Shown here in pieces: positions 2,262 through 56,009 of a stretch of DNA of 56,550 nucleotides. A program made the position numbers and the translations under genes. How positions within the stretch are numbered: the stretch's first letter is position 1; every line of letters begins with the position of its first letter. The stretch is from a virus. Lineage: Duplodnaviria; Caudoviricetes. The stretch spans positions 1 through 56,550 of IMG/VR virus record IMGVR_UViG_3300037493_003812, one strand, 5' to 3'. The notes beneath the pieces were generated by a model. That model had not been told where the DNA came from. It saw only the letters and a list, made by a program, of their open reading frames with translations, and searched no databases.

Positions 2262-2506
2262 AGGAGTTTGCACCAGTCAGGGGAGACTGAGACCATTACA
2301 TCATCGAAGAGGACGGCGAATAGAGCGGAGTCTGTTTTGATGACTATGCCGACGGCATTGGGTTGAATGAGTATCCGTTTAATTTTAGGGCGAGAGAGGC
2401 CATTTGACAGGTCCATGTCTGGGGTATAGAGCATGAAGTTATAGGGCATATCAAGGGTGTTAGTGATAAGGTCTCCGGCCTTGATTGATTTAGTGTGTTT
2501 ATTCAT
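2258..2506 (-). CDS. Small SH3/KOW-like family protein
   Basis: KAGDLI ... VLFDD. Confidence 0.65.
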   Translation of the reverse strand: MNKHTKSIKAGDLITNTLDMPYNFMLYTPDMDLSNGLSRPKIKRILIQPNAVGIVIKTDSALFAVLFDDVMVSVSPDWCKLL

Positions 2507-2757
2507 ATTGAATGAATCCAGAGAGCGGTGACGGCGAGCAACTGTTCATTGAACAGAACGATATGACAGGCCTCATTGTTAGGGAGCTTTGATATCCAGA
2601 GACAAATTGTATCCGCTGGGATACAGACGGTAGGTTGGTCGAGGTCGGTACCGTTTGGCTTGACGTTCCATCCCCAGCTATCGCTATCGCCTGGGTCTGG
2701 GTCATCGCTTTTAAGACGGACTAATTGGCCTGCGGAGAAGTTCTTAGGCTTTTTCAT
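2503..2757 (-). CDS. Small SH3/KOW-like family protein
   Basis: FSAGQLV ... VLFNEQ; start placed at MKKPKNF. Confidence 0.65.
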   Translation of the reverse strand: MKKPKNFSAGQLVRLKSDDPDPGDSDSWGWNVKPNGTDLDQPTVCIPADTICLWISKLPNNEACHIVLFNEQLLAVTALWIHSI

Positions 2758-3019
2758 TGAATTCCTCTTGGACGAGTTCGAAGACATTTCTGAATTTGGG
2801 GTGGATTTTCTGGAGTTCTCCATCTGGAGTGACGACGGTCCAGACACGATAGGACTTAGCGGCTGCTGGCGGGTTCTCGGACTTAATGATTAAGAATACG
2901 TCATTTTCGTTAAATTCGACGGTGCTAAAGAAGGCCCACCAAGGAATCTTTCTGCGTCGATGTTTCATATGTGGTTTAAGTCGGATAAGTTTCCCGACAC
3001 GCATAATTGGTTTGTTCAT
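2744..3019 (-). CDS. Small SH3/KOW-like family protein
   Basis: MRVGKLIRLK ... VVTPDG. Confidence 0.65.
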   Translation of the reverse strand: MNKPIMRVGKLIRLKPHMKHRRRKIPWWAFFSTVEFNENDVFLIIKSENPPAAAKSYRVWTVVTPDGELQKIHPKFRNVFELVQEEFNEKA

Positions 3020-11234: not shown

Positions 11235-11309
11235 ATATTCATTATACCAGAATGTTTGCCGATTTTAAAGTAATTAAAGCCAGGGATTTCCTGGCTTTCT
11301 TCGATTACT

Positions 11310-24566: not shown

Positions 24567-26381
24567 CTATTCCCTTGGACTCGTAATATTACCATTTTCA
24601 TCCACAAAACCAAATGCTCTAAGCGTATGCTCAAATGGCTTTCCTTCAATCGAAGCAACCTGCTTAAGCATTTCTCCCGCTATCTCCCTAATTTCCAGCT
24701 GAGCATGCTTCGAATACCTGAGATTAAGGAAATGAGCAAAACTTCTAAAATTAAACATAACATCAATCGTTAGCTGATTCCCATAGGGTAGATATAGTCG
24801 AGCACTTTCCTTCGCTCGCTTTCTGTCCATACCACTAGCCACTAACCGTCCTAGACATTCGTGATAAGCTTTTAGACTATTCTCCATATGCTCGACGTAT
24901 CTAGCAACCTCTACGTTGTTCCAGTCCTGTGGAACGTAATACTTGTCATCCTTAAGTTCCTTATATCGAGCACTATTATGAACGACAACCCCGTTTGCTA
25001 CAAAATTTTTCCATTTACCAGCTATTTCAATATCAAAAGTTTTTTCCTCTTTTAACTCTTCAATTGACACAATTTTAGAATAATTCGCAGACAGTTTTTT
25101 CCCAATTCTTTTTTTTCTAGGCTTCCAGCAAGGCTTGAATTCTTCACTCAATACTTTATCTGCGAAAGATTTTTCTATCTCTTCTGTTTTGTGTATAGAG
25201 TGATGACAATTTTCACAAACAGTTATTAAGTTGTTAAATTCATATGCCAAATTTTCATCGGCGCCGACAGGAACAATGTGATGGGCGTGTAATGTAGAAC
25301 TTCCATTACCACACTCTTGGCATGTCCAATTAAACTTTTCATGAACACGCCGGGCATTTCTAGTTGTCCAAACTCCTATCAAGGATCTCTCCTTTGTTAT
25401 TCCACCCCTCCAAAAATGTGATTTGGATCCGGAGCTTGCTTTCCCTTGTGCTCGGCGTATTTGTAAACTCTCTTCGCTTAAATTTAAGGTGTATCCTTTG
25501 ATATTTTTATTCCAAGGGATACCCTCCTTTTTAAAATCCTTATTTAAATCAAGCTTAAAAAGAGCTTTGTGTATGTACCCCCACTTCTTACAAAGTTCAT
25601 ATTTTATTCCAGACTTTAACGCAAATTCTTTCATTGTAAATTCGTGAGACTGTGCAAAGTATTCAGGAAACGTCCAAGGACGGGAAGGAACATGTGTTTT
25701 AATGCCGTTTGTGGCGACCTCGACACCTACCCGAAGTGTTTTATCGGAAATAGTTGACCACCCATTTCGTGTATATACCCTATGATCTTTTGAGCACTTT
25801 AACACTTTTCCATCTGATAGCGTTATTTTATAAACCAATTTTTGGCCAGAGCAAGTAATGTCCTTAACGTGCGAATATTCGAAAACATTTGTTTCTTCAT
25901 TTAAGACACGAATTTTCATTCGTTGTAATCTTTTTCTTTGATAATCAATCTCTGCCTTAGATGTTGAATTGTTGCGACCAGTATTCCATTTCTGGTATAA
26001 ATCTTCAATTTTAAAACGAAGCTTCGGAGTGGCCTGATCGTTGGTGTTAACGAATGTTATTTCGCTTGAACCATCCAAACATTCACTATTGATAGAGACC
26101 CCAATTCTATGTTTTAGCAAATGAATATGGGAATCCAAAGAGGTGGTGGCTAGAAAATGAAGGCTACTCTTCTCAAAGGGAGAGTGATGATTATTTTCAG
26201 CCAGCATCTTTAGAAGAGCTGGAATACGAGCTACTTTTTCTGGCGTAAGTTCTCTTGAAGTGGAGGTCCACGCAGAACACGCATGTTCACTATCGCCACC
26301 GTAGGTTCCAAGAATTTCGACAGTATTTTGATGTGCTAATTTAATTGCTGTAGTCATTGGTCTATTATAGAATGCCGGCAT
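24567..26381 (-). CDS. thyX: Flavin-dependent thymidylate synthase with intein
   Basis: HHSPFE, KHRIGVSINSE|SARY, KESARLYLP, NFRSFAHFLNLR..HAQLEIR. Confidence 0.92.
   Translation of the reverse strand: MPAFYNRPMTTAIKLAHQNTVEILGTYGGDSEHACSAWTSTSRELTPEKVARIPALLKMLAENNHHSPFEKSSLHFLATTSLDSHIHLLKHRIGVSINSECLDGSSEITFVNTNDQATPKLRFKIEDLYQKWNTGRNNSTSKAEIDYQRKRLQRMKIRVLNEETNVFEYSHVKDITCSGQKLVYKITLSDGKVLKCSKDHRVYTRNGWSTISDKTLRVGVEVATNGIKTHVPSRPWTFPEYFAQSHEFTMKEFALKSGIKYELCKKWGYIHKALFKLDLNKDFKKEGIPWNKNIKGYTLNLSEESLQIRRAQGKASSGSKSHFWRGGITKERSLIGVWTTRNARRVHEKFNWTCQECGNGSSTLHAHHIVPVGADENLAYEFNNLITVCENCHHSIHKTEEIEKSFADKVLSEEFKPCWKPRKKRIGKKLSANYSKIVSIEELKEEKTFDIEIAGKWKNFVANGVVVHNSARYKELKDDKYYVPQDWNNVEVARYVEHMENSLKAYHECLGRLVASGMDRKRAKESARLYLPYGNQLTIDVMFNFRSFAHFLNLRYSKHAQLEIREIAGEMLKQVASIEGKPFEHTLRAFGFVDENGNITSPRE
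24975..26081 (-). mobile_element. Intein (369 aa) carrying an HNH endonuclease
   Basis: CLDGSSEI start, CSKDHRV block B, CQECG..HAHH..NLITVCENCH, NFVANGVVVHN followed by Ser. Confidence 0.9.
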
Positions 26382-27853: not shown

Positions 27854-29005
27854 TCATTCGTAATTGCGGACTACAATTCCTACGCAAAAGCGTGGCAATG
27901 GCGGCGTGCTGTTAGTCATCCCCTGGTACCGAACAGTCAGCATCTGCCCAATGTAGTTTGCAGGGTTCTTGAGAATCGGCTTAAGCGTTTCAAGACTTCC
28001 CTCCATCTTACAGTCAAAGCGTCCACCCTGCTTCGTCTGACAAACGAAGATAGCACACTCAGCCATACGTCCCCGGCCAGGACGAACACCGACAATCTCA
28101 AACTCTGCATCATCGAAGCTCTTGATCTTTTGAAGATTATAGGACCGCTTCGTCTCATAGACGCTGTTCGTATTGCGAACCATCGTGCCCTCATATCCAG
28201 CCGCACGGTCGTCCGTAAAGTATTGCATAAGCTCTTCAATGCCCGCAACCTCACGAGTCGTCACGTAGACCAAAGGCTCGCCACAGAGCGCTACAACGCC
28301 CGCTAGAATGGTAGAGCGCTCAGCGAAATACGTCCCAATCTTCGTGTTGCTCAGCGAGTCTGCCACAATGTCATAGCAATGATACTGCACGACCTCATGG
28401 CCAGCCTTCGCCGTCACTTGCCGAACAAAGGAAACAATCTGCTCAAAATTCGTCTTGAACGCATGATTGTAAAGCTCACCGTCCAGAATCATATTGCGAT
28501 TCGGGAACGCCGCTTCAATTGCACGGTTGATATGCGGAACGCCCGTGATAAGCTTACGGGTACGAGTCCAAAGCTTACAGACGCCATTGGCGAGCATAGC
28601 GATACAACGAATACCATCCAGCTTCGGCTGGCAATAAGCGGGAAACGTGATCTTCTTGGCCTGCTCGGCATACTTATGGGCGAGCATTGGCTCAATTCCA
28701 CCCGCAACGAATTGAGCATCGCTCTCGCCAGCGTTAGCAGAGGCGAGGGTCTTACAATAACCAGTCTTAAGCTTCTTCTCCCACTGGGACTGAGCCTCAA
28801 AGACGGCCTGCTCGGCTGCGGTAGTTGCGTTCTTACGCCCGGCGTTCTTACCGGAGGCGATGGTTTCCTGAATGGACTGCATCTTGCCGCCCATCTTACC
28901 ATAGGTCTTATGGATGACGTTGCTAACGACGGAAATGGCCCAGGTCTGGATGGTACCGTTGGAATTCTGCGAATAGAGGGGAGCGAACTGCGTGGTGTTT
29001 GACAT
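27854..29005 (-). CDS. ATP-dependent DNA ligase with N-terminal WGR-like domain
   Basis: KLDGIR, LDGELY, EGTMVR, KIKSFDDAE; leaderless promoter 29012-29040. Confidence 0.93.
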   Translation of the reverse strand: MSNTTQFAPLYSQNSNGTIQTWAISVVSNVIHKTYGKMGGKMQSIQETIASGKNAGRKNATTAAEQAVFEAQSQWEKKLKTGYCKTLASANAGESDAQFVAGGIEPMLAHKYAEQAKKITFPAYCQPKLDGIRCIAMLANGVCKLWTRTRKLITGVPHINRAIEAAFPNRNMILDGELYNHAFKTNFEQIVSFVRQVTAKAGHEVVQYHCYDIVADSLSNTKIGTYFAERSTILAGVVALCGEPLVYVTTREVAGIEELMQYFTDDRAAGYEGTMVRNTNSVYETKRSYNLQKIKSFDDAEFEIVGVRPGRGRMAECAIFVCQTKQGGRFDCKMEGSLETLKPILKNPANYIGQMLTVRYQGMTNSTPPLPRFCVGIVVRNYE

Positions 29006-37991: not shown

Positions 37992-39197
37992 TTACGACCG
38001 CTTCGCCAGCGAGAGGATGGAGTCCAAGAAGGAAGCCGTCCACTCTCCAGAGACGCCCCGCTTCGCCTCGATATACCCAGCGATATCCGAACACTTGCCC
38101 GCATACTGCATCATCGCCGGATCGAACCAGATTCCAGATTGGTGTGCCGACCGAGCAAAAGTCTTCCGATGCGCCGCAGACCCCCACGGCTCAGACGTTG
38201 CCTCTGCTACCAGAGCCGACACTTCATCATACTTCACTCGATAATCCTTAAGCATTGCCCGAACGCCGCCTTGCATCTTCGTCGCAGACACCTTCATATC
38301 ATCCGACATTACCACGAACGCATCATCCAGCTTCTCACCAAGAATAAGCGTCATGACGTTCCGAGGAGACGCCACTGCATCCTTAAGCCGAGAATATGTC
38401 ATATATTGCGCAGACTTGATCTTCACACGGTTGAAGACGCCCGGCGAAACTTCCTGACAAGCCACGATTCCCTCAAACTGACGAGGATCACGGCCCTGAA
38501 CGAACTCCGTGATTTCTGCTACAGAACCGAGGCGATACGTCTCTATAGACTTCACGCCAAGGATAGAAGACGTTGCCGGCCAATATTCACGCCCCGTAAG
38601 CGTCTCACGCACACCGAGAAGAACGATATAGTCCGTCTTGTGCTGAACAACCACTTGGTTCGCTCCCGCACAAAGCTCGAAAACATACGTCATGGACCGA
38701 TCAAGCTTCTCCGACCAGAGTGCAAAATCACACGCCAGCGTCTTCTCAAAGAGATCACGGAACGTCATATCCCAGCCATTAAGCGGGAGATCTGCCTCGC
38801 AAACTGCCCGAGTCGCCACATGCCACGCAGACTGAATATCATCGAAATAGACGATGCAACAAGTTCCGTCATACTTGTTCTCAAGCACGGTATCATTTGC
38901 CATGAGATCGATCGAAGCTGCTGCTCCCATGCCGCAATTAAAAAACCTGCGGAAAGGCTTAGCGAGCACGACCGTCTCACCTACTGCGGCATCCACAGGA
39001 AGCGGCGAACCGTCAACCGTGCGCAATACAAGCCCTCGGCATTCTTGCGAAAGCTCATCGCTATCAACTGCTTCCAGTTGATCATAATTTAGCGACATTT
39101 TGTAATTTCGCTCAGACGCAATGCGGCACTTAACGCCGTGATCCCGATAGAGATCAGCGATTGAGTGCGTAAGCAGATATTCTTGGACAGGGAGCAT
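37992..39197 (-). CDS. RNA ligase, T4 Rnl1-like
   Basis: ECRGLV, PFRRFFN, KYDG (motif I), YVFEL, EGIV, RVKIK; promoter 39217-39245. Confidence 0.88.
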   Translation of the reverse strand: MLPVQEYLLTHSIADLYRDHGVKCRIASERNYKMSLNYDQLEAVDSDELSQECRGLVLRTVDGSPLPVDAAVGETVVLAKPFRRFFNCGMGAAASIDLMANDTVLENKYDGTCCIVYFDDIQSAWHVATRAVCEADLPLNGWDMTFRDLFEKTLACDFALWSEKLDRSMTYVFELCAGANQVVVQHKTDYIVLLGVRETLTGREYWPATSSILGVKSIETYRLGSVAEITEFVQGRDPRQFEGIVACQEVSPGVFNRVKIKSAQYMTYSRLKDAVASPRNVMTLILGEKLDDAFVVMSDDMKVSATKMQGGVRAMLKDYRVKYDEVSALVAEATSEPWGSAAHRKTFARSAHQSGIWFDPAMMQYAGKCSDIAGYIEAKRGVSGEWTASFLDSILSLAKRS

Positions 39198-39324
39198 AGC
39201 GTTTCTTTCTATATACATTATACCAGATTTTTGGTCAAATTTAAACCAATAATATGCTTTTGCACAAAAGAAAAAGCCCCAGTTTCCCAGGGCTTTTCAC
39301 GCATTAATTCTTTTGCCGGCTTAA

Positions 39325-41804: not shown

Positions 41805-43250
41805 TCAGTGCCCTGCCTTGGCTGCGTTAGCTCGAACTTCGTCCAGCGTATAGGTCTTCTTGATTTCGCCATTCTCAAAGACGACTTGGAGAAGATCGTT
41901 GGTAACCGGTCCGTTCACCGTGAGCACACGCCCCAGGTCCCCGCTGCGCAGACCTCGGACAAGAGCCTGATGGCCCTTCTTCGACCGCTTACCAGTATCA
42001 GTAATCGGGTCCTTCGATACGTCCCGCCACTCCCCATTCACAAGAGCCGAGGCGCACTTAAAAGCGAAGCGCATTGTGTCCCTGTTGCAGAGTTGCAGCA
42101 AGCCACCTCCCATACCAAATCCAATGCAGCTGGCCGAATAACCTGCTGCCATCACTGCCCGAAGAATCTTAGGAATCGACTCATCGTTAATTCCATCGCC
42201 CTGAATAAGACCGAAGTAAGCAGGGAGCACCTTGAACCCCTTAAGGTTCCGCTTCATCCCAATCTTACGGTCGATAATGTCAAGAATCTTGATAAGAACG
42301 GTCGCCGGGTCACCCGAGTCAGGACGAATAACCAGCTTACCGCCCGAGGAGCTCACAAGGTCCAGAAGCTCCTCGCACCAGATATTCTCTACGGCGTTGT
42401 AAATGTCATACGAATCCGAGACACAAGCCGCAATCTTCTGCATCCCCGCCGGTACCTCACGCTCCACAAGATACTTCTGCACGAAGTTTCTGTAAGCCTT
42501 TGCTTCGTTCTCACGGCCCCACATCGTGATCGTGCTATGTTCAGCCGCAGGAATCGAGAAAGCGCTCATTCGACCCTCGACACCATAATAGTGATTGGCT
42601 GCCCGAATGCCTTCCACAGTGTCCGAACCAAGGAAATTGACAAGGTGCGCCGCTCCACCGATACGAGCCGACTCCTGGCTCGACACGCCTCGTGCGCCAA
42701 AGTCGTGAAGCTTGAAAGCAATCTCGCCTGCCGGATCGTCCGACGACTTTTCAAGTGCTTCAAGAATCGACTGCTTACAGAAATAGCTGATCGTACAAAC
42801 TGTAGTGGCGTACCAAACTTGGACTAGCATCGTTTCAAGATAGCTCACGCACCAAAAGACTTCCGGGTCCGGGACGGTCAATTCGATATCAAAGAGAACA
42901 TTCGACACCGGCACGACAGTTCCCTCAGGGACCGCCCGAATACGGACGGGGAACTTACCATCGTACTTATTGACGAGACACTCCCAGCCCTGCCGATTGA
43001 ACGGCTCGCCATGTGCCTCAAAGAAAGCGGCCGCCTCTTCCACGTGAGCCTGCGTGACAGGCTGCGAGAGGTACTGCTGGAGGTAATACTGGAGACCGAA
43101 GAAAACGGTCGAATGATACCGACCACCACGACTCTCAAAATACGAATACATATTCGTAACGTCGGGCGGATACTGGACCCAGTGCGAAGCCTTATAGCTG
43201 TCCGTGGCGGTAATGGGATTATATGCGAGGGGAGCGATGGTCTTAGTCAT
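41805..43250 (-). CDS. nadV: Nicotinamide phosphoribosyltransferase (NAMPT)
   Basis: TDSYKASH, LHDFGARG, PAAEHS, SDSYD, VIRPDSG, QGDG, FGMGGGLLQ. Confidence 0.95.
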   Translation of the reverse strand: MTKTIAPLAYNPITATDSYKASHWVQYPPDVTNMYSYFESRGGRYHSTVFFGLQYYLQQYLSQPVTQAHVEEAAAFFEAHGEPFNRQGWECLVNKYDGKFPVRIRAVPEGTVVPVSNVLFDIELTVPDPEVFWCVSYLETMLVQVWYATTVCTISYFCKQSILEALEKSSDDPAGEIAFKLHDFGARGVSSQESARIGGAAHLVNFLGSDTVEGIRAANHYYGVEGRMSAFSIPAAEHSTITMWGRENEAKAYRNFVQKYLVEREVPAGMQKIAACVSDSYDIYNAVENIWCEELLDLVSSSGGKLVIRPDSGDPATVLIKILDIIDRKIGMKRNLKGFKVLPAYFGLIQGDGINDESIPKILRAVMAAGYSASCIGFGMGGGLLQLCNRDTMRFAFKCASALVNGEWRDVSKDPITDTGKRSKKGHQALVRGLRSGDLGRVLTVNGPVTNDLLQVVFENGEIKKTYTLDEVRANAAKAGH

Positions 43251-50064: not shown

Positions 50065-50094
50065 AGACTTATTATACCAGAATGAAAGCCGAAT

Positions 50095-50280
50095 TTAAAG
50101 TGATTTAATCAAGTCAGCGGTATCGCAGAGGCAATTATCCTCGTGGCGACCACACCCGTCGCAACGTGCGGCAACAAACTTCACGGGATGACCAAGGAAA
50201 TCCACACGCCTAGCAGAACGCAGACGGTTCTGGCGAGGGCGACTATCTTCCGAGACTTCGAGGCGGTTCGTCTTGCTCAT
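50095..50280 (-). CDS. Small Cys-containing early protein
   Basis: Own promoter 50287-50315. Confidence 0.6.
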   Translation of the reverse strand: MSKTNRLEVSEDSRPRQNRLRSARRVDFLGHPVKFVAARCDGCGRHEDNCLCDTADLIKSL

Positions 50281-50914: not shown

Positions 50915-51457
50915 TCAGCGGGGAGCCTTCATTGCCGGCTCAAACTTCTCTAACAACAGATTAACAGCAAATTGAACATGACGCTTAAGGAGCCCGCCAG
51001 CAAACATATCCGTCTTCACAAGCCAAGGGAGAAACGGACCCATATCGTCCTCATCATCCAAAATACAAATTCCATCAACATTATCCCAATTAGCAAGCAA
51101 CCAACGTTGGATCTGCTTTCCTCGAATTCCAGGTCCGGTGTCCGTCATTCCAACAATACGGTCAGGGAACTTGAATCCCTTCTCAGCCAACACAGAAGCA
51201 ATCTCGGCCTGAGTATGAAGCACTCGCCAAGTAGAAGAAATAACAACATGACAATCTGCTTGCTCTACAATATCATTCAACACAGAAACATTATCAGAAT
51301 TAATATGCGATAGATCGAAAGCCCGTAGAGTCTCCGCCTCGCTGAGGCTATTTAGCAACGACGAGATCTTGCGCTTCTCATTACGTGCGAAATTCGCTTG
51401 CTGTAGGAAGCTGGAATCATTTAGAACCCCATCAATATCTAAAAACAGTATACGCAT
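50915..51457 (-). CDS. HAD-family phosphatase (RNA-repair associated type)
   Basis: FLDIDGVLN, VISSTWR, RGKQI, ILDD. Confidence 0.85.
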   Translation of the reverse strand: MRILFLDIDGVLNDSSFLQQANFARNEKRKISSLLNSLSEAETLRAFDLSHINSDNVSVLNDIVEQADCHVVISSTWRVLHTQAEIASVLAEKGFKFPDRIVGMTDTGPGIRGKQIQRWLLANWDNVDGICILDDEDDMGPFLPWLVKTDMFAGGLLKRHVQFAVNLLLEKFEPAMKAPR

Positions 51458-53551: not shown

Positions 53552-53817
53552 TTGACTCTCCTAAGTGTCCGACAGTCCGCTCTCACAATCTGCTCATTGA
53601 ACATCACAAGCAAATAGTATTCCTCTTCCTCCTCAATCAAATCATCTACCACCAACCCAATATCCAAAGGTTCAACCCTTACAATACTGTTCGATGTAAT
53701 GTGAATCCCCTCAGTATCGTGCCAGCTTTCTTCCGTACAAAAGTTATGATTGCGCAGATTGCTCGCCAAGCGAACTAACGTGCCAGTCTTCATTGTATGC
53801 TTGCTTGACATATCCAT
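53548..53817 (-). CDS. Small SH3/KOW-like family protein
   Basis: MKTGTLV ... VMFNEQ; promoter upstream. Confidence 0.65.
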   Translation of the reverse strand: MDMSSKHTMKTGTLVRLASNLRNHNFCTEESWHDTEGIHITSNSIVRVEPLDIGLVVDDLIEEEEEYYLLVMFNEQIVRADCRTLRRVK

Positions 53818-53907
53818 ACGTCCAGTATATCATACAATTCTTAGATTTTAAAGTAATAAAAAAGCCGGCTAACTATTTGATATCACAAAGAAATTCTCGT
53901 CGTTACT

Positions 53908-53966
53908 CTGGCACTCATTCTACGGTCAAGGCAGATTAGGGATTGAACCTAATAAATGAGCCGGAC
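53908..53966 (-). ncRNA. tRNA-like module (T-arm plus loop-closed stem), candidate ncRNA
   Basis: TTAGG-TTCAATC-CCTAA T-arm, TCTGC/GTAGA hairpin, enclosed by CTCATT/AATGAG. Confidence 0.4.
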
Positions 53967-54082
53967 ATCTAAACCTGACTGATGCAATATCGTGGCCACG
54001 TAATTACACTCGTCGCTATCACTCATACCCAAGCGCTTGGATAAGCAATAAACAAGAACTTCTTTCTAATGTCAAATCAAAC

Positions 54083-54219
54083 GTTATTTGCTTTGTTCTG
54101 TGGATATGAACACACGCCGTTTCGAATGGGCCTTCCATTGTTAGCATCGATTCTAACACATCCGTATCCAGACACGGGCCAACCGTTAGCTTCCTTACCC
54201 ATAGAACAAAACAAATAAC
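54083..54219 (-). ncRNA. Structured ncRNA candidate with 21-bp closing stem
   Basis: GTTATTTGTTTTGTTCTATGG pairs with CCACAGAACAAAGCAAATAAC; internal hairpins; starts right after tRNA-Asn. Confidence 0.55.
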
Positions 54220-54223
54220 AAAG

Positions 54224-54295
54224 CTCCAAGACTAGGGATCGGACCTAGGACTTATCGGTTAACAGCCGAGCGTTCTACCACTGAACTATCTTGGA
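54224..54295 (-). tRNA. tRNA-Asn(GTT)
   Basis: Cloverleaf TCCAAGA/TCTTGGA, anticodon loop CTGTTAA. Confidence 0.92.
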
Positions 54296-54303
54296 ATATA
54301 CAA

Positions 54304-55146
54304 CTACATCTTACTGTAAGATCGAATCCATTTTCTAATGGCATTATCACTCACACCGTATTTTTTACCGACAGACACATAACTAGTCGTCTTCAACTCA
54401 TTCATCAATACTTCTAACGAAGGTCGTTCGACTTTTCTATTTCGTCTCGCCTGACACGGCGCACACCGCTTGGCTCCAATTACTATTTCTGTTTGACATT
54501 CTAAACAGAAACAGTTTTTTCTTTCCGGCTTAATTGGTTTTTCATATTCAACAATAGGTAAAGCCAACTTCTCTAATACAAGATTTACGCAAGCCATAAC
54601 ATCTTCACGAACGGCCTTTGCGGGTATTCTTACCACTTCCCAACCGTGTCCAACAGCAACAGCATCCCGCCGGGCGTCAATCTTTTTGACTTTATCTTGT
54701 CTGTGTGTATCACCGTCGATTTCAACATCTAAACGACACTCTGGCCAAGCAAAGTCAAAACTATACATACCGAAAGCGTATTCAGTTTCCCAGCCCACTA
54801 CACCGTTTTCTTTCAAAGCTTTTTCAAAGGCTTGCTCAGGATAAGAGCGCTTGCTAGAATGATACAGCCGATACGGTATTTTGCTCGGATTTGCTTCATA
54901 ATATCTAATTTGAGATTCGGATATCTTTCGTCTTGTTTCCTCGCTTGGAGCAGGTCGTTTATGATTTAACTGATGCAGCCTCTGCGCTTCACTCGGAGTC
55001 CTAAATGAAATTTCACCTCGACTCTTTGCTTTATACAAAGCAGCAACACACACGCCGTATTTAACACACAAATCTTTTTGACTCATGCCAGAGTCATATT
55101 CCGCTTGCAATAACTTCCAATCGTATCGTTTATGATATTTACTCAT
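54304..55146 (-). CDS. DUF559/Vsr-like homing endonuclease within the tRNA cluster
   Basis: N-terminal HTH, NUMOD3-like motif, YSFDFAW..VEIDGDTH..D..RD, Zn finger, C-terminal HTH. Confidence 0.82.
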   Translation of the reverse strand: MSKYHKRYDWKLLQAEYDSGMSQKDLCVKYGVCVAALYKAKSRGEISFRTPSEAQRLHQLNHKRPAPSEETRRKISESQIRYYEANPSKIPYRLYHSSKRSYPEQAFEKALKENGVVGWETEYAFGMYSFDFAWPECRLDVEIDGDTHRQDKVKKIDARRDAVAVGHGWEVVRIPAKAVREDVMACVNLVLEKLALPIVEYEKPIKPERKNCFCLECQTEIVIGAKRCAPCQARRNRKVERPSLEVLMNELKTTSYVSVGKKYGVSDNAIRKWIRSYSKM

Positions 55147-55713: not shown

Positions 55714-55727
55714 GTTCTCACTCTCAG

Positions 55728-55816
55728 TCCACCTATGGGGTGTCGATCCCCATCCGTTCGCCGATCTGGCGATTAAAGATTATAAGTCTTCCCGCACTGC
55801 CGAGTGCTTTAGGTGG
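55728..55816 (-). tRNA. tRNA-Ile(TAT) with long variable arm
   Basis: CCACCTA/TAGGTGG, loop CTTATAA, V-arm TCGCC-AGATC-GGCGA, T-arm TGGGG-ATCGACA-CCCCA. Confidence 0.82.
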
Positions 55817-55848
55817 TAATATATTAATTAGTAGTAGACTTGAAATAG

Positions 55849-55916
55849 AGTCGAAACGATTTAGAGGGTACCATCTTCGCCGAGCATACCCAGCCAAGCT
55901 CTTCATCGCCTCGACT
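55849..55916 (-). ncRNA. Small promoter-driven hairpin RNA / structured leader of the tRNA operon
   Basis: AGTCGAGGCGAT/ATCGTTTCGACT stem whose 5' end is at the predicted TSS of promoter 55922-55950. Confidence 0.5.
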
Positions 55917-56009
55917 TACTCAGTATACCAGAACCTTACCCGAATTTAAACCCTTTTAAGAAAGATTTTTATTTTATTTTGCCGGCCTTAATAACCAGCT
56001 GAAATTTAG

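What the first reader, a model, noticed from the sequence alone, without database searches (positions are those of the whole stretch)
54083..54219. 137-nt RNA with a 21-bp closing stem and tRNA-like inner arms
Seen: it begins 4 nt after tRNA-Asn. A long terminal helix encloses GCTAA-CGG-TTGGC, CCGTGTC-TG-GATACGG, GTTAG-AATCGATG-CTAAC (T-arm-like) and AATGG/CCATT hairpins. I do not recognise it as a known family. Inference: a novel ncRNA released by tRNA processing.
Basis: seen in the sequence. Interest (0 to 1): 0.7.

Follow-up and report, generated by a model that had tools for sequence, protein, structure and literature searches.

The report
Conserved structured RNA after phage tRNAs
A 137-base stretch just after a tRNA gene in a large freshwater phage folds into a long closed stem around four small hairpins and is kept in related phages, so it is most likely a new small non-coding RNA of unknown job, similar in placement to the unexplained small RNAs of phage T4.

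Summary
On the minus strand (the strand of all tRNAs and genes here), 54219->54083 forms a 24-position closing helix (21 Watson-Crick, 2 G.U, 1 A.C) around an 89-nt core. The fold beats all 200 shuffles (z -4.6).

No Rfam family matches, even at E<=10, and it is not tRNA-like by ARAGORN or the tRNA model.

I fetched one nucleotide homologue (metagenome contig L010). Three sequencing runs gave variant tables, and four called ORF translations gave indirect information. The element is about 90% identical between the window and L010, at least as conserved as the flanking tRNAs (54-88%).

Changes in the closing helix are compensatory: two double changes, two wobble-to-pair changes, and one mismatch repaired in different ways. 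Variation supports a revised core (P2-P5).

A second helix-closed module follows directly. The layout (tRNAs, homing endonuclease, tRNA, small RNAs) parallels T4 rnaD/rnaC, but a covariance model finds no homology.

An open reading frame overlaps the element. It lacks a start codon in the window and is broken by indels in variants, so coding is unlikely.

Expression, processing and function are untested. Verdict: a real, probably new phage tRNA-island ncRNA family of moderate interest.

The parts
54196..54219 (-). P1 5' arm (RNA positions 1-24) of the closing helix
   Evidence: Inverted repeat. Paired in the MFE and in the consensus fold. Positions 18, 19 and 21 change in L010 together with their partners.
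54083..54106 (-). P1 3' arm (RNA positions 114-137)
   Evidence: Changes from window to L010: 116 U->C, 117 C->A, 119 A->U, 120 C->U, 129 G->A; all keep or create pairs. X2 and X9 carry 54100 G>A (RNA C120->U), which turns the A18.C120 mismatch into A-U.
54174..54186 (-). P2 hairpin (RNA 34-37 paired with 43-46, loop 38-42)
   Evidence: RNAalifold consensus. Run X6 has A34->U together with U46->A, which is compensatory. Its other changes here (position 38, loss of one C of the run 42-44) and the L010 change at 39 fall in the loop.
54160..54173 (-). P3 hairpin (RNA 47-51 paired with 56-60, loop GAUA)
   Evidence: U50.G57 in the window becomes U-A in L010 and in X6. The residues of P0046 at these codons are compatible with C-G at 50-57 (inference from a translation).
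54139..54158 (-). P4 hairpin (RNA 62-67 paired with 76-81, 8-nt loop AAUCGAUG)
   Evidence: Invariant in the window, L010, X2, X6 and X9. The residues covering it (DVLESMLT) are invariant in all 5 frame-C translations. It never varies, so no covariation test is possible.
54126..54138 (-). P5 hairpin (RNA 82-85 paired with 91-94)
   Evidence: X6 loses one nucleotide on the 5' side (position 83) and changes the 3' side (position 93, with a loop deletion at 88), so the stem is shortened on both sides. The L010 and X2 changes (86, 88) lie in the loop.
54114..54124 (-). J segment (RNA 96-106), predicted single-stranded and invariant
   Evidence: No change in the window, L010, X2, X6 or X9. Unpaired in the model. 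Possible 3-4 bp pseudoknots with the P4 or P5 loop are my inference only and are untested.
54223..54295 (-). tRNA-Asn (GUU) directly upstream, without an encoded CCA
   Evidence: ARAGORN; Rfam 63.4 bits.
53875..54078 (-). Second helix-closed module: 5' arm 54078-54053, 3' arm 53899-53875, about 150-nt core
   Evidence: Folds. The L010 counterpart has z -8.39 and an inverted repeat. The 5' arm is near-identical in L010 (30 of 32 columns) while the core is not alignable (107 of 194 columns). Four transitions in the L010 3' arm and the X2 change at 54054 all keep or improve pairing (pairing worked out by hand).
55922..55950 (-). Likely promoter of the tRNA / small-RNA transcription unit (TTTAAA-17-TATACT, TG-extended)
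   Evidence: It belongs to a motif family with at least 19 copies in the window. That it drives this unit is inference.
54304..55146 (-). DUF559 / Vsr-like endonuclease ORF with HTH motifs, inside the tRNA cluster
   Evidence: Pfam PF04480, E 9.2e-08. Absent from this position in L010.

Best explanation
The element is a structured non-coding RNA module of a phage tRNA operon, read from the minus strand. I infer that it is transcribed with tRNA-Glu, the two tRNA-Lys genes, the endonuclease ORF and tRNA-Asn, from a phage promoter near 55950. It folds on its own into a 24-position closing helix (P1) around four adjacent hairpins (P2-P5) and an invariant single-stranded segment.

I propose the following. 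The 5' end is set when the 3' trailer of the upstream tRNA is cut. The roughly two-turn P1 duplex is either an RNase III entry site or an exonuclease-proof cap. The result would be a stable RNA of about 90-140 nt. It would act in trans through its invariant P4 loop and J segment, most likely by binding a protein.

Shown: structure above chance, conservation at or above the level of the tRNAs, compensatory change in P1 and P2, no known family.

Inferred: transcription, processing, trans action. The partner and the biological role are unknown. A decoy role in the tRNA-damage/repair conflict, suggested by the neighbouring genes, is a guess at about 15%.
For: Fold:
- z -4.61 with 0 of 200 shuffles as good; L010 copy z -5.95.
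- In a 433-nt fold, tRNA-Asn, the element and module 2 each fold as separate closed domains.

Conservation between the window and L010:
- Element: 125 of 139 columns.
- tRNA-Asn 42 of 74, tRNA-Lys(CUU) 66 of 79, tRNA-Lys(UUU) 65 of 74, tRNA-Glu 65 of 76.
- The flanks on both sides of element plus tail are not alignable by blastn.

Covariation, window against L010:
- Two P1 pairs change on both sides and stay paired: 19-119 U-A to A-U, and 21-117 G-C to U-A.
- Two go from wobble to Watson-Crick: 9-129 and 22-116.
- The 18.120 mismatch becomes G.U.
- 12 of the 137 positions differ and 9 of these lie in P1. All 9 keep a pair or, at 18.120, make one.

Run variants:
- X2 and X9 repair 18.120 to A-U.
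- X6 has a compensatory 34/46 double change in P2 and a two-sided shortening of P5.

A distant translated relative, P0047, has residue changes in both arms: Ile->Val with Ile->Thr, and Cys->Asp with Gln->Ser. These are exactly complementary at pairs 4-134, 7-131 and 8-130 if the Ser codon is UCN (inference).

Strand:
- The minus-strand fold is 11 kcal/mol better than the plus-strand fold.
- The non-Watson-Crick positions in the helices are mostly G.U on the minus strand.
- All 5 tRNA calls in the window are on the minus strand, as are nearly all the longest ORFs.

Other:
- No Rfam match at E<=10.
- The element starts 2-4 nt after a tRNA or tRNA-like 3' end in the window and in L010.
Against: - No RNA data: expression, ends and stability are unknown.
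- Only two full nucleotide sequences exist, so the shuffle control has no power (234 of 500 shuffles reach the observed score). The rest of the variation comes from single low-depth contigs (depth 4-8) or from translations.
- P4, J and most of P1 never vary, which says nothing for or against pairing.
- An open frame spans the element in every sequence seen, and 8 of 13 window/L010 differences fall on its third codon positions.
- No RNase III, Ro/TROVE or RtcB gene is in the window, but the window is only about 24% of the genome.
- No RNA target was found: the longest complement elsewhere in the window is 11 nt, which is chance level.
Confidence: 0.55

Rival explanations
1. Cis-only processing or stability cassette. 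The long helices of module 1 and module 2 are RNase III sites or 3' caps that separate and protect the tRNA transcripts. The enclosed RNA has no trans function.
For: - Two tandem modules share the same architecture.
- In module 2 only the helix is conserved and the core is exchanged: 30 of 32 columns against 107 of 194.
- Both sit between the last tRNA and the end of the unit.
- A two-turn duplex is the classical RNase III substrate (established knowledge, recalled).
Against: - The 89-nt core of module 1 is as conserved as its helix: 4 substitutions in positions 25-113 between the window and L010.
- P4 and J are invariant in 5 of 5 nucleotide-level sequences and at residue level in the distant relatives P0046 and P0047. 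A pure processing stem does not need that.
Confidence: 0.2
2. A small protein gene. The frame open from 54231 to 54022 (70 codons stop to stop) encodes a conserved peptide, and the RNA helix is incidental.
For: - The frame is open in the window and L010.
- Gene callers called it in relatives: P0043, P0044/P0048, P0046, P0047.
- The stretch DVLESMLT...FE.ACV..HRTK is conserved down to 59-68% identity.
- 8 of 13 window/L010 differences are at third codon positions and 5 codons change only synonymously. One-frame binomial p is about 0.035, and about 0.1 after allowing for three frames (my arithmetic).
Against: - The window has no ATG, GTG or TTG in this frame before RNA position 61, yet the upstream 60 nt are equally conserved.
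- Starts, N-termini, C-termini and stop positions differ in every relative. Conservation begins and ends at the edges of the RNA helix.
- P0044/P0048 read the 5' arm in another frame and reach this frame only through an insertion of about 53 nt, which is not a multiple of 3 (my count).
- Run X6 has single-base deletions at RNA 44, 83 and 88. These run this frame into a stop, or shift it, while preserving the hairpins.
- The residue changes in the arms are non-conservative but complementary at nucleotide level.
- There is no Pfam domain (precomputed column).
- The protein searches can only find relatives in which the frame happens to be open, so '5 of 5 open' is biased.
Confidence: 0.08
3. A DNA-level element: a terminal-inverted-repeat mobile element, a recombination or endonuclease-associated cassette, or a protein-bound palindrome. 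On this reading its high identity reflects recent transfer rather than RNA function.
For: - 24-bp inverted repeats.
- Identity drops sharply at both edges, and the upstream neighbour differs: tRNA-Asn in the window, X2 and X8; a tRNA-like gene in L010; unlike sequence in X6.
- A homing-type endonuclease lies next door.
Against: - Single copy in the window and in L010.
- No target-site duplication visible at the ends.
- The downstream neighbour (module 2) is the same wherever it was seen.
- Arm mismatches are mostly G.U on the transcribed strand.
- Inner hairpins P2, P3 and P5 also show structure-preserving change, which a terminal-repeat model does not predict.
Confidence: 0.07
4. A degenerate or unusual tRNA, or a tRNA-like mimic of the Y RNA / YrlA type.
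For: - It lies in a tRNA cluster.
- The 5' and 3' ends pair in a long stem, as in Y RNAs.
- RNA-repair genes are nearby: an Rnl1-like ligase and HAD_SAK_2.
Against: - ARAGORN and the Rfam tRNA model find nothing, and no Rfam family matches at E<=10.
- The loops are not 7-nt T-loops.
- No TROVE (Ro) or RtcB gene is in the window.
Confidence: 0.04

Closest known systems
Phage T4 small stable RNAs RNAC (species 1, 139 nt) and RNAD (species 2, 119 nt)
   Same: - The genomic grammar matches. In T4: a run of tRNA genes, a homing endonuclease gene (segB), a last tRNA, then two small RNAs of 119 and 139 nt on the same strand. Here: tRNAs, a DUF559 endonuclease ORF, tRNA-Asn, then two structured modules.
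- Similar size.
- T4 rnaC folds well above chance (z -4.57).
- The roles of the T4 RNAs are still unknown (passages read in PMC3014915 and PMC9697503).
   Different: - No detectable homology. The covariance model of this element finds nothing in the T4 tRNA region at E<=10.
- T4 rnaC ends in a T-arm plus acceptor-like stem. This element has neither, and is closed by a 24-position helix instead.
- The endonucleases belong to different families: GIY-YIG in T4, DUF559/Vsr-like here.
ROOL and GOLLD RNAs
   Same: Phage or prophage non-coding RNAs of unknown function that often sit next to tRNA islands (passages read in PMC12286853).
   Different: They are about 500-800 nt or more, with ornate multi-pseudoknot folds that assemble into cages. 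This element is 137 nt and matches neither Rfam model.
Y RNAs / bacterial YrlA
   Same: The 5' and 3' ends pair in a long stem around a structured core. Both are associated with RNA-repair gene neighbourhoods (recalled knowledge; neighbours here).
   Different: No match to any Rfam model, no tRNA-like domain, and no Ro (TROVE) gene in the window.
RNase III processing stems (rRNA operon stalks, T7 early-region sites)
   Same: A duplex of about two helical turns, formed by sequences that flank an RNA to be released from a polycistronic transcript (recalled knowledge; helix).
   Different: Cleavage is untested. Here the enclosed RNA is a small conserved core of unknown function, not an rRNA or mRNA.

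Membership tests
tRNA / tRNA-like (Rfam RF00005, ARAGORN) | Cloverleaf with acceptor, D, anticodon and T arms that the tRNA covariance model can score | tested here: not met
   ARAGORN finds 5 tRNAs in the window and none at 54083-54219. Rfam tRNA gives no match on the element at E<=10, while it scores the neighbouring tRNAs at 45-63 bits.
Any Rfam 15 family (4227 models, which I believe include Y RNA, 6S, tmRNA, ROOL, GOLLD and the self-cleaving ribozymes) | Covariance-model match | tested here: not met
   No match overlapping 54083-54219 at gathering score or at E<=10. The same holds for the L010 copy. Which named families the library holds is from my recall, not checked.
T4 RNAC/RNAD-type small stable RNAs | Encoded directly downstream of the last tRNA of a phage tRNA cluster, on the same strand | tested here: met
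   window; L010; T4.
T4 RNAC/RNAD-type small stable RNAs | Sequence or structure homology to T4 rnaC or rnaD | tested here: not met
   Model R1 searched over the T4 locus L002 gave no match at E<=10. The folds differ (against 5).
T4 RNAC/RNAD-type small stable RNAs | Accumulates as a discrete stable RNA during infection | not testable with these tools
   No RNA run holds the stretch. Only DNA contigs could be laid.
Y RNA / YrlA | Ro (TROVE-domain) protein encoded by the same genome, usually nearby | tested here: inconclusive
   No TROVE match in the window at E<=1, but the record is estimated at only 24% of the genome.
RNase III substrate | Uninterrupted duplex of about 20 bp or more | tested here: met
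   23 of 24 positions pair in the window. All 23 positions of the helix in the L010 fold pair.
RNase III substrate | Staggered cleavage in the helix, in vivo or in vitro | not testable with these tools
   Needs end mapping or an enzyme assay.
MITE / terminal-inverted-repeat mobile element | Multiple dispersed copies and target-site duplications | tested here: not met
   One copy in the 56.5-kb record. The covariance model finds only the element itself in the window and L010. No direct repeat flanks the arms.
Small protein-coding gene | Conserved start codon, and a reading frame kept intact across relatives | tested here: not met
   No start codon in the window before RNA position 61. The frame switches in P0044/P0048. 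Three 1-nt deletions occur in X6.
Small protein-coding gene | Excess of synonymous over non-synonymous change | tested here: inconclusive
   8 of 13 differences are at third positions, but 8 nucleotide changes alter residues and most of those are the compensatory helix changes. Two sequences are too few.

The most novel reading that the evidence does not exclude
Phage tRNA islands of this freshwater lineage carry a modular set of 'helix-capped' RNA cassettes. These are helices of about 25 bp that present exchangeable structured cores. Module 1 has a fixed core. Module 2 has a swapped core. One relative has about 53 nt inserted just inside the module 1 helix. RNase III would cut the cassettes out of the tRNA precursor, yielding trans-acting RNAs. 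These would serve as decoys or cofactors in the conflict over tRNA cleavage and repair.
Probability: 0.12. Interest if true: 0.75.

Novelty: new variant of a known kind. Interest (0 to 1): 0.45.

Why it matters
Small RNAs tied to phage tRNA clusters have lacked a function for fifty years (T4 RNAC/RNAD), and the large ROOL and GOLLD RNAs have the same association. This would be a further, compact and unrelated family at the same genomic address, in an uncultured large freshwater phage.

If the family is real, the address itself (just after the last tRNA) looks like a general niche for phage non-coding RNAs. The element is a small, tractable object: 137 nt, with a clear closing helix and invariant loops. 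That makes it suitable for asking what such RNAs bind.

The practical value is limited for now. The family is rare in the collections searched and its host is unknown.

Tried and rejected
Homologue hunts that found nothing:
- Exact patterns from the element, its tail or tRNA-Asn in IMG/VR: 0 stretches in each of 5 scans.
- Protein-anchored loci in IMG/VR, using the HAD protein, the Rnl1-like ligase and an 11-sequence HAD alignment: no confirmed relative in any of 3 scans.
- INPHARED phages by blastn: only tRNA-Asn matched in 19 records. The L010 region gave no match.
- The metagenome scan with an 18-mer gave 10 stretches. One was a true homologue (L010) and 9 were chance hits, as the flanks showed.
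- The genome-contig scan gave 2 stretches, both chance hits.

The contigs behind P0044, P0046, P0047 and the HAD homologues P0001-P0010 could therefore not be fetched.

Expression:
- No RNA holder was listed for the stretch. Only DNA contigs were laid.

Searches with nothing to add:
- A protein search with the second open frame (54229-54080) found no candidate.
- In the window, no match at E<=1 for TROVE, RtcB, RNase III, reverse transcriptase or the CCA-adding enzyme family.
- Target search: the longest perfect complement of the core elsewhere in the window is 11 nt, which is chance level.

Considered and dropped:
- A retron msr-msd RNA: no reverse transcriptase.
- Self-cleaving ribozymes and riboswitches: no Rfam match, and the element is not in a 5' UTR.
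- A hok-like type I toxin mRNA with 5'-3' pairing: no usable start codon in the window.
- A 7-nt similarity to the 16S rRNA 3' region that I recalled: it is at chance level, so I did not pursue it.

Literature:
- Searches for earlier descriptions turned up only the T4 RNAC/RNAD and ROOL/GOLLD literature. I found nothing on an element like this one, but subscription journals are not covered.

Full report
**Context**

The window is a 56.5-kb IMG/VR virus record estimated at 24% of a genome, so it comes from a large phage. Its DNA recurs in lake and sediment metagenome runs.

All 5 tRNA calls are on the minus strand, as are nearly all the longest ORFs.

The minus-strand order in this region, is:
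- a phage-type promoter at 55950-55922;
- a 90-nt tRNA(UAU);
- tRNA-Glu, tRNA-Lys(UUU) and tRNA-Lys(CUU);
- a 280-aa DUF559/Vsr-like endonuclease ORF (55146-54304);
- tRNA-Asn (54295-54223);
- the 137-nt element (54219-54083);
- about 215 nt of further non-coding sequence;
- the promoter of the next gene (53852-53824).

The window also encodes an Rnl1-like RNA ligase, a HAD 'Swiss Army Knife RNA repair' protein, a NAMPT and a DNA ligase.

**The observation**

The repeat finder gives arms 54083-54106 and 54196-54219: 24 nt, 88% Watson-Crick. As minus-strand RNA the other three positions are two G.U pairs and one A.C mismatch.

The minus strand folds at -48.1 kcal/mol (z -4.61, 0 of 200 shuffles as good). 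The plus strand folds at -36.9 kcal/mol.

Folded within 433 nt of context, tRNA-Asn, the element and the following module each close on themselves.

No Rfam family matches, at gathering score or at E<=10. ARAGORN sees no tRNA there. So the object is real and unclassified, but 'tRNA-like' is not borne out.

**Relatives**

The lineage is rare in what I could search.
- Five exact-pattern scans and three protein-anchored scans of IMG/VR found nothing.
- INPHARED gave only tRNA-Asn hits.
- One 18-mer scan of the metagenome contigs gave 10 stretches, of which one (L010, 5376 nt) is a true homologue.
- The genome-contig scan gave two chance hits.

L010 has the same tRNA series. It lacks the endonuclease at that spot. 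It has an extra tRNA-like gene of about 103 nt, with an encoded CCA, between tRNA-Asn and the element. The element begins 2 nt after that CCA.

Laying contigs of four DNA runs on the region gave variant tables for three further near relatives: X2, X6 and X9.

Translating the open frame over the element and searching protein collections recovered four called ORFs from other contigs: P0043 (which is L010), P0044/P0048, P0046 and P0047. These give indirect, residue-level information on more distant copies. Their DNA could not be fetched.

**Conservation**

Identity between the window and L010:

| Feature | Identical columns |
|---|---|
| Element | 125 of 139 |
| tRNA-Lys(UUU) | 65 of 74 |
| tRNA-Glu | 65 of 76 |
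| tRNA-Lys(CUU) | 66 of 79 |
| tRNA-Asn | 42 of 74 |
| tRNA(UAU) | 51 of 95 |

Neighbouring ORFs match only in short tblastx fragments of roughly 54-79% identity. By blastn, similarity stops at the element's 5' edge and 31 nt beyond its 3' edge.

**Structure from variation**

Twelve positions within 2-137 differ between the window and L010, and 9 of them lie in P1.

In P1:
- Pairs 19-119 and 21-117 change on both sides and stay paired.
- Pairs 9-129 and 22-116 go from G.U to Watson-Crick.
- The A18.C120 mismatch becomes G.U.
- X2 and X9 repair the same mismatch differently: C120->U gives A-U.
- In P0047 the residues over the two arms change together (Ile->Val with Ile->Thr; Cys->Asp with Gln->Ser). 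This makes pairs 4-134, 7-131 and 8-130 complementary again if Ser is UCN. This step is inference from a translation.

In the core:
- X6 carries A34->U with U46->A.
- L010 and X6 both carry G57->A opposite U50.
- X6 removes one base on each side of the AAUGG/CCAUU stem.

Together with the RNAalifold consensus, these give the following model:

| Part | RNA positions | Note |
|---|---|---|
| P2 | 34-37 / 43-46 | compensatory change in X6 |
| P3 | 47-51 / 56-60 | wobble becomes Watson-Crick |
| P4 | 62-67 / 76-81 | loop AAUCGAUG |
| P5 | 82-85 / 91-94 | shortened on both sides in X6 |
| J | 96-106 | invariant, unpaired |

P4 and J never vary in any sequence, so their pairing state is untested.

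The formal count on two sequences has no statistical power: 234 of 500 shuffles reach the observed score. The slid-partner control does drop from 97.9% of cells paired to 31-50%. As the tool itself notes, that is partly expected for a structure derived from these same sequences.

My rough estimate is that two independent complementary double changes among 12 substitutions have a chance of the order of 1 in 1000. This is arithmetic, not a tool result.

**A second module**

Immediately after the element, 54078-54053 pairs with 53899-53875 in a helix of about 25 bp around a core of roughly 150 nt.
- L010 has the same helix (fold z -8.39; inverted repeat).
- Its core is unalignable to the window's: 107 of 194 columns, against 30 of 32 columns for the 5' arm.
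- The four differences in the L010 3' arm are transitions that keep or improve pairing. Two of them create G.U pairs, which would be A.C mismatches on the other strand.
- The X2 change at 54054 turns a G.U pair into C-G (pairing worked out by hand).

This supports RNA-level helices on the minus strand. It also suggests that the helix is a functional unit in its own right.

**The coding rival**

A frame is open from 54231 to 54022 (70 codons). The same frame is open in L010 and in the three other relatives.

In its favour: 8 of the 13 window/L010 differences fall on its third codon positions, and five codons change only synonymously.

Against it:
- The window has no ATG, GTG or TTG in this frame before RNA position 61, yet the upstream part is equally conserved.
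- Every relative has a different start, N-terminus, C-terminus and stop. Residue conservation begins and ends at the edges of the helix.
- P0044/P0048 read the 5' arm in another frame and rejoin this one only through an insertion of about 53 nt.
- The three single-base deletions in X6 break the frame while keeping the hairpins.
- A protein search can only recover copies whose frame is open.
- Genes in this phage typically start either a few bases after a -10 hexamer (18 of 72 ORFs) or after a purine-rich ribosome-binding site (25 of 72). Neither precedes a start in this frame.

I put coding at about 8%.

**Mechanism**

Shown: an independently folding, conserved element closed by a helix on the tRNA strand, abutting a tRNA 3' end.

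Inferred: it is part of the tRNA precursor. Its 5' end is made when the tRNA trailer is cut; tRNA-Asn lacks an encoded CCA, so an endonucleolytic cut after the discriminator base is expected (established knowledge). The two-turn P1 duplex is cut by RNase III or caps the RNA against exonucleases. The stable product acts through the invariant P4 loop and J segment.

What it binds is unknown. No target complement of 12 nt or more exists in the window. No Ro, RtcB, RNase III or reverse transcriptase gene is in the 24% of the genome that is available.

The tRNA set (Glu-UUC, Lys-UUU, Lys-CUU, Asn-GUU) and the ligase and HAD genes are of the kind linked to anticodon-nuclease conflicts (recalled knowledge). 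A decoy or cofactor role there is therefore my preferred guess, at low confidence.

**Comparison with known systems**

The closest analogue by address is T4. There, tRNAs, segB and tRNA-Arg are followed by rnaD (119 nt) and rnaC (139 nt), whose roles are still unknown (passages in PMC3014915 and PMC9697503).

There is no homology. The covariance model built from the window and L010 finds only the element itself in the window and L010, and nothing in the T4 region at E<=10. T4 rnaC ends in a T-arm/acceptor-like domain that this element lacks.

ROOL and GOLLD share the 'near phage tRNA islands' habit (passages in PMC12286853). They are several times larger and unmatched here.

Y RNAs share the closed-stem design but fail the tests that could be run.

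**Verdict**

This is a real, conserved, structured element and most likely a new small ncRNA family of a phage tRNA island. Its tRNA-likeness and half of its inner hairpins do not. Expression and function remain open.

The evidence base is thin: two full sequences, three low-depth variant tables and four translations.

Noticed in passing
window 53875-54078 (-); L010 about 2377-2566 (-): A second module with the same design follows the element directly: a closing helix of about 25 bp conserved between the window and L010, around a core of about 130-150 nt that is not alignable between them. The window's core contains a T-arm-like hairpin (UUAGG-UUCAAUC-CCUAA, about 53934-53950).
   Followed up: partly
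window, at least 19 copies, e.g. 50067-50113, 11237-11283, 53818-53863, 55918-55964: A repeated promoter-like motif on the minus strand (TTTAAA, 17 nt, TG-extended TATACT/TATAAT), with the ATG only a few bases after the -10 hexamer. 18 of 72 ORFs have such a hexamer just before the start codon, which suggests many leaderless mRNAs.
   Followed up: partly
window 55727-55816 (-); L010 3797-3886 (-): ARAGORN calls a 90-nt tRNA with anticodon UAU and what looks like a long extra arm. It is present in both contigs, with quite different but internally complementary acceptor stems (51 of 95 columns identical). The Rfam tRNA model does not report it at E<=10. A class-II-like tRNA reading AUA would be unusual. 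The window ORF 55733-55906 overlapping it is probably spurious.
   Followed up: partly
L010 about 2713-2815 (-): An undetected tRNA-like gene lies between tRNA-Asn and the element. It has a 7-bp acceptor stem, a D-arm, a T-arm (GAAGA-UUCGACU-UCUUC) and an encoded CCA, but about 34 nt where the anticodon loop should be. ARAGORN does not call it and no Rfam match at E<=10 covers it. The N-terminus of P0047 translates the same T-arm/acceptor/CCA, so a distant relative has it too.
   Followed up: partly
window 54304-55146 (-): A DUF559/Vsr-like endonuclease ORF with HTH motifs sits between tRNA-Lys(CUU) and tRNA-Asn. It is absent from that position in L010, where a different 148-aa ORF lies between the two tRNA-Lys genes. 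This looks like a free-standing homing endonuclease in a tRNA cluster, as segB is in T4.
   Followed up: partly
relative known only from P0044/P0048: A near-identical relative seems to carry about 53 extra nucleotides between RNA positions 24 and 28, just inside the closing helix. This is inferred from 19 extra codons and a frame switch in the called ORF. P0046 aligns without gaps over P2-P3 but with different residues.
   Followed up: partly
window 53805-53833 (+): A near-consensus sigma-70-type promoter on the plus strand (TTGACA, 17 nt, TATCAT; 11 of 12 matches) points antisense into module 2 and the element. No counterpart is evident in the L010 sequence read.
   Followed up: no
window 53860: Runs X2 and X6 carry a 28-nt insertion at the end of the non-coding region, between module 2 and the next promoter. 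L010 has a clear hairpin plus U-run terminator at the equivalent place, whereas the window has only a short GC palindrome plus U-run.
   Followed up: no
window 37992-39218, 50915-51457, 41805-43250, 27854-29005, 24567-26381 (all -): The gene set includes an Rnl1-like RNA ligase, a HAD_SAK_2 RNA-repair-associated protein, a NAMPT, an ATP-dependent DNA ligase, and a 604-aa ORF that combines a nucleotide-metabolism match with an inserted HNH endonuclease domain, possibly an intein or a fusion.
   Followed up: no
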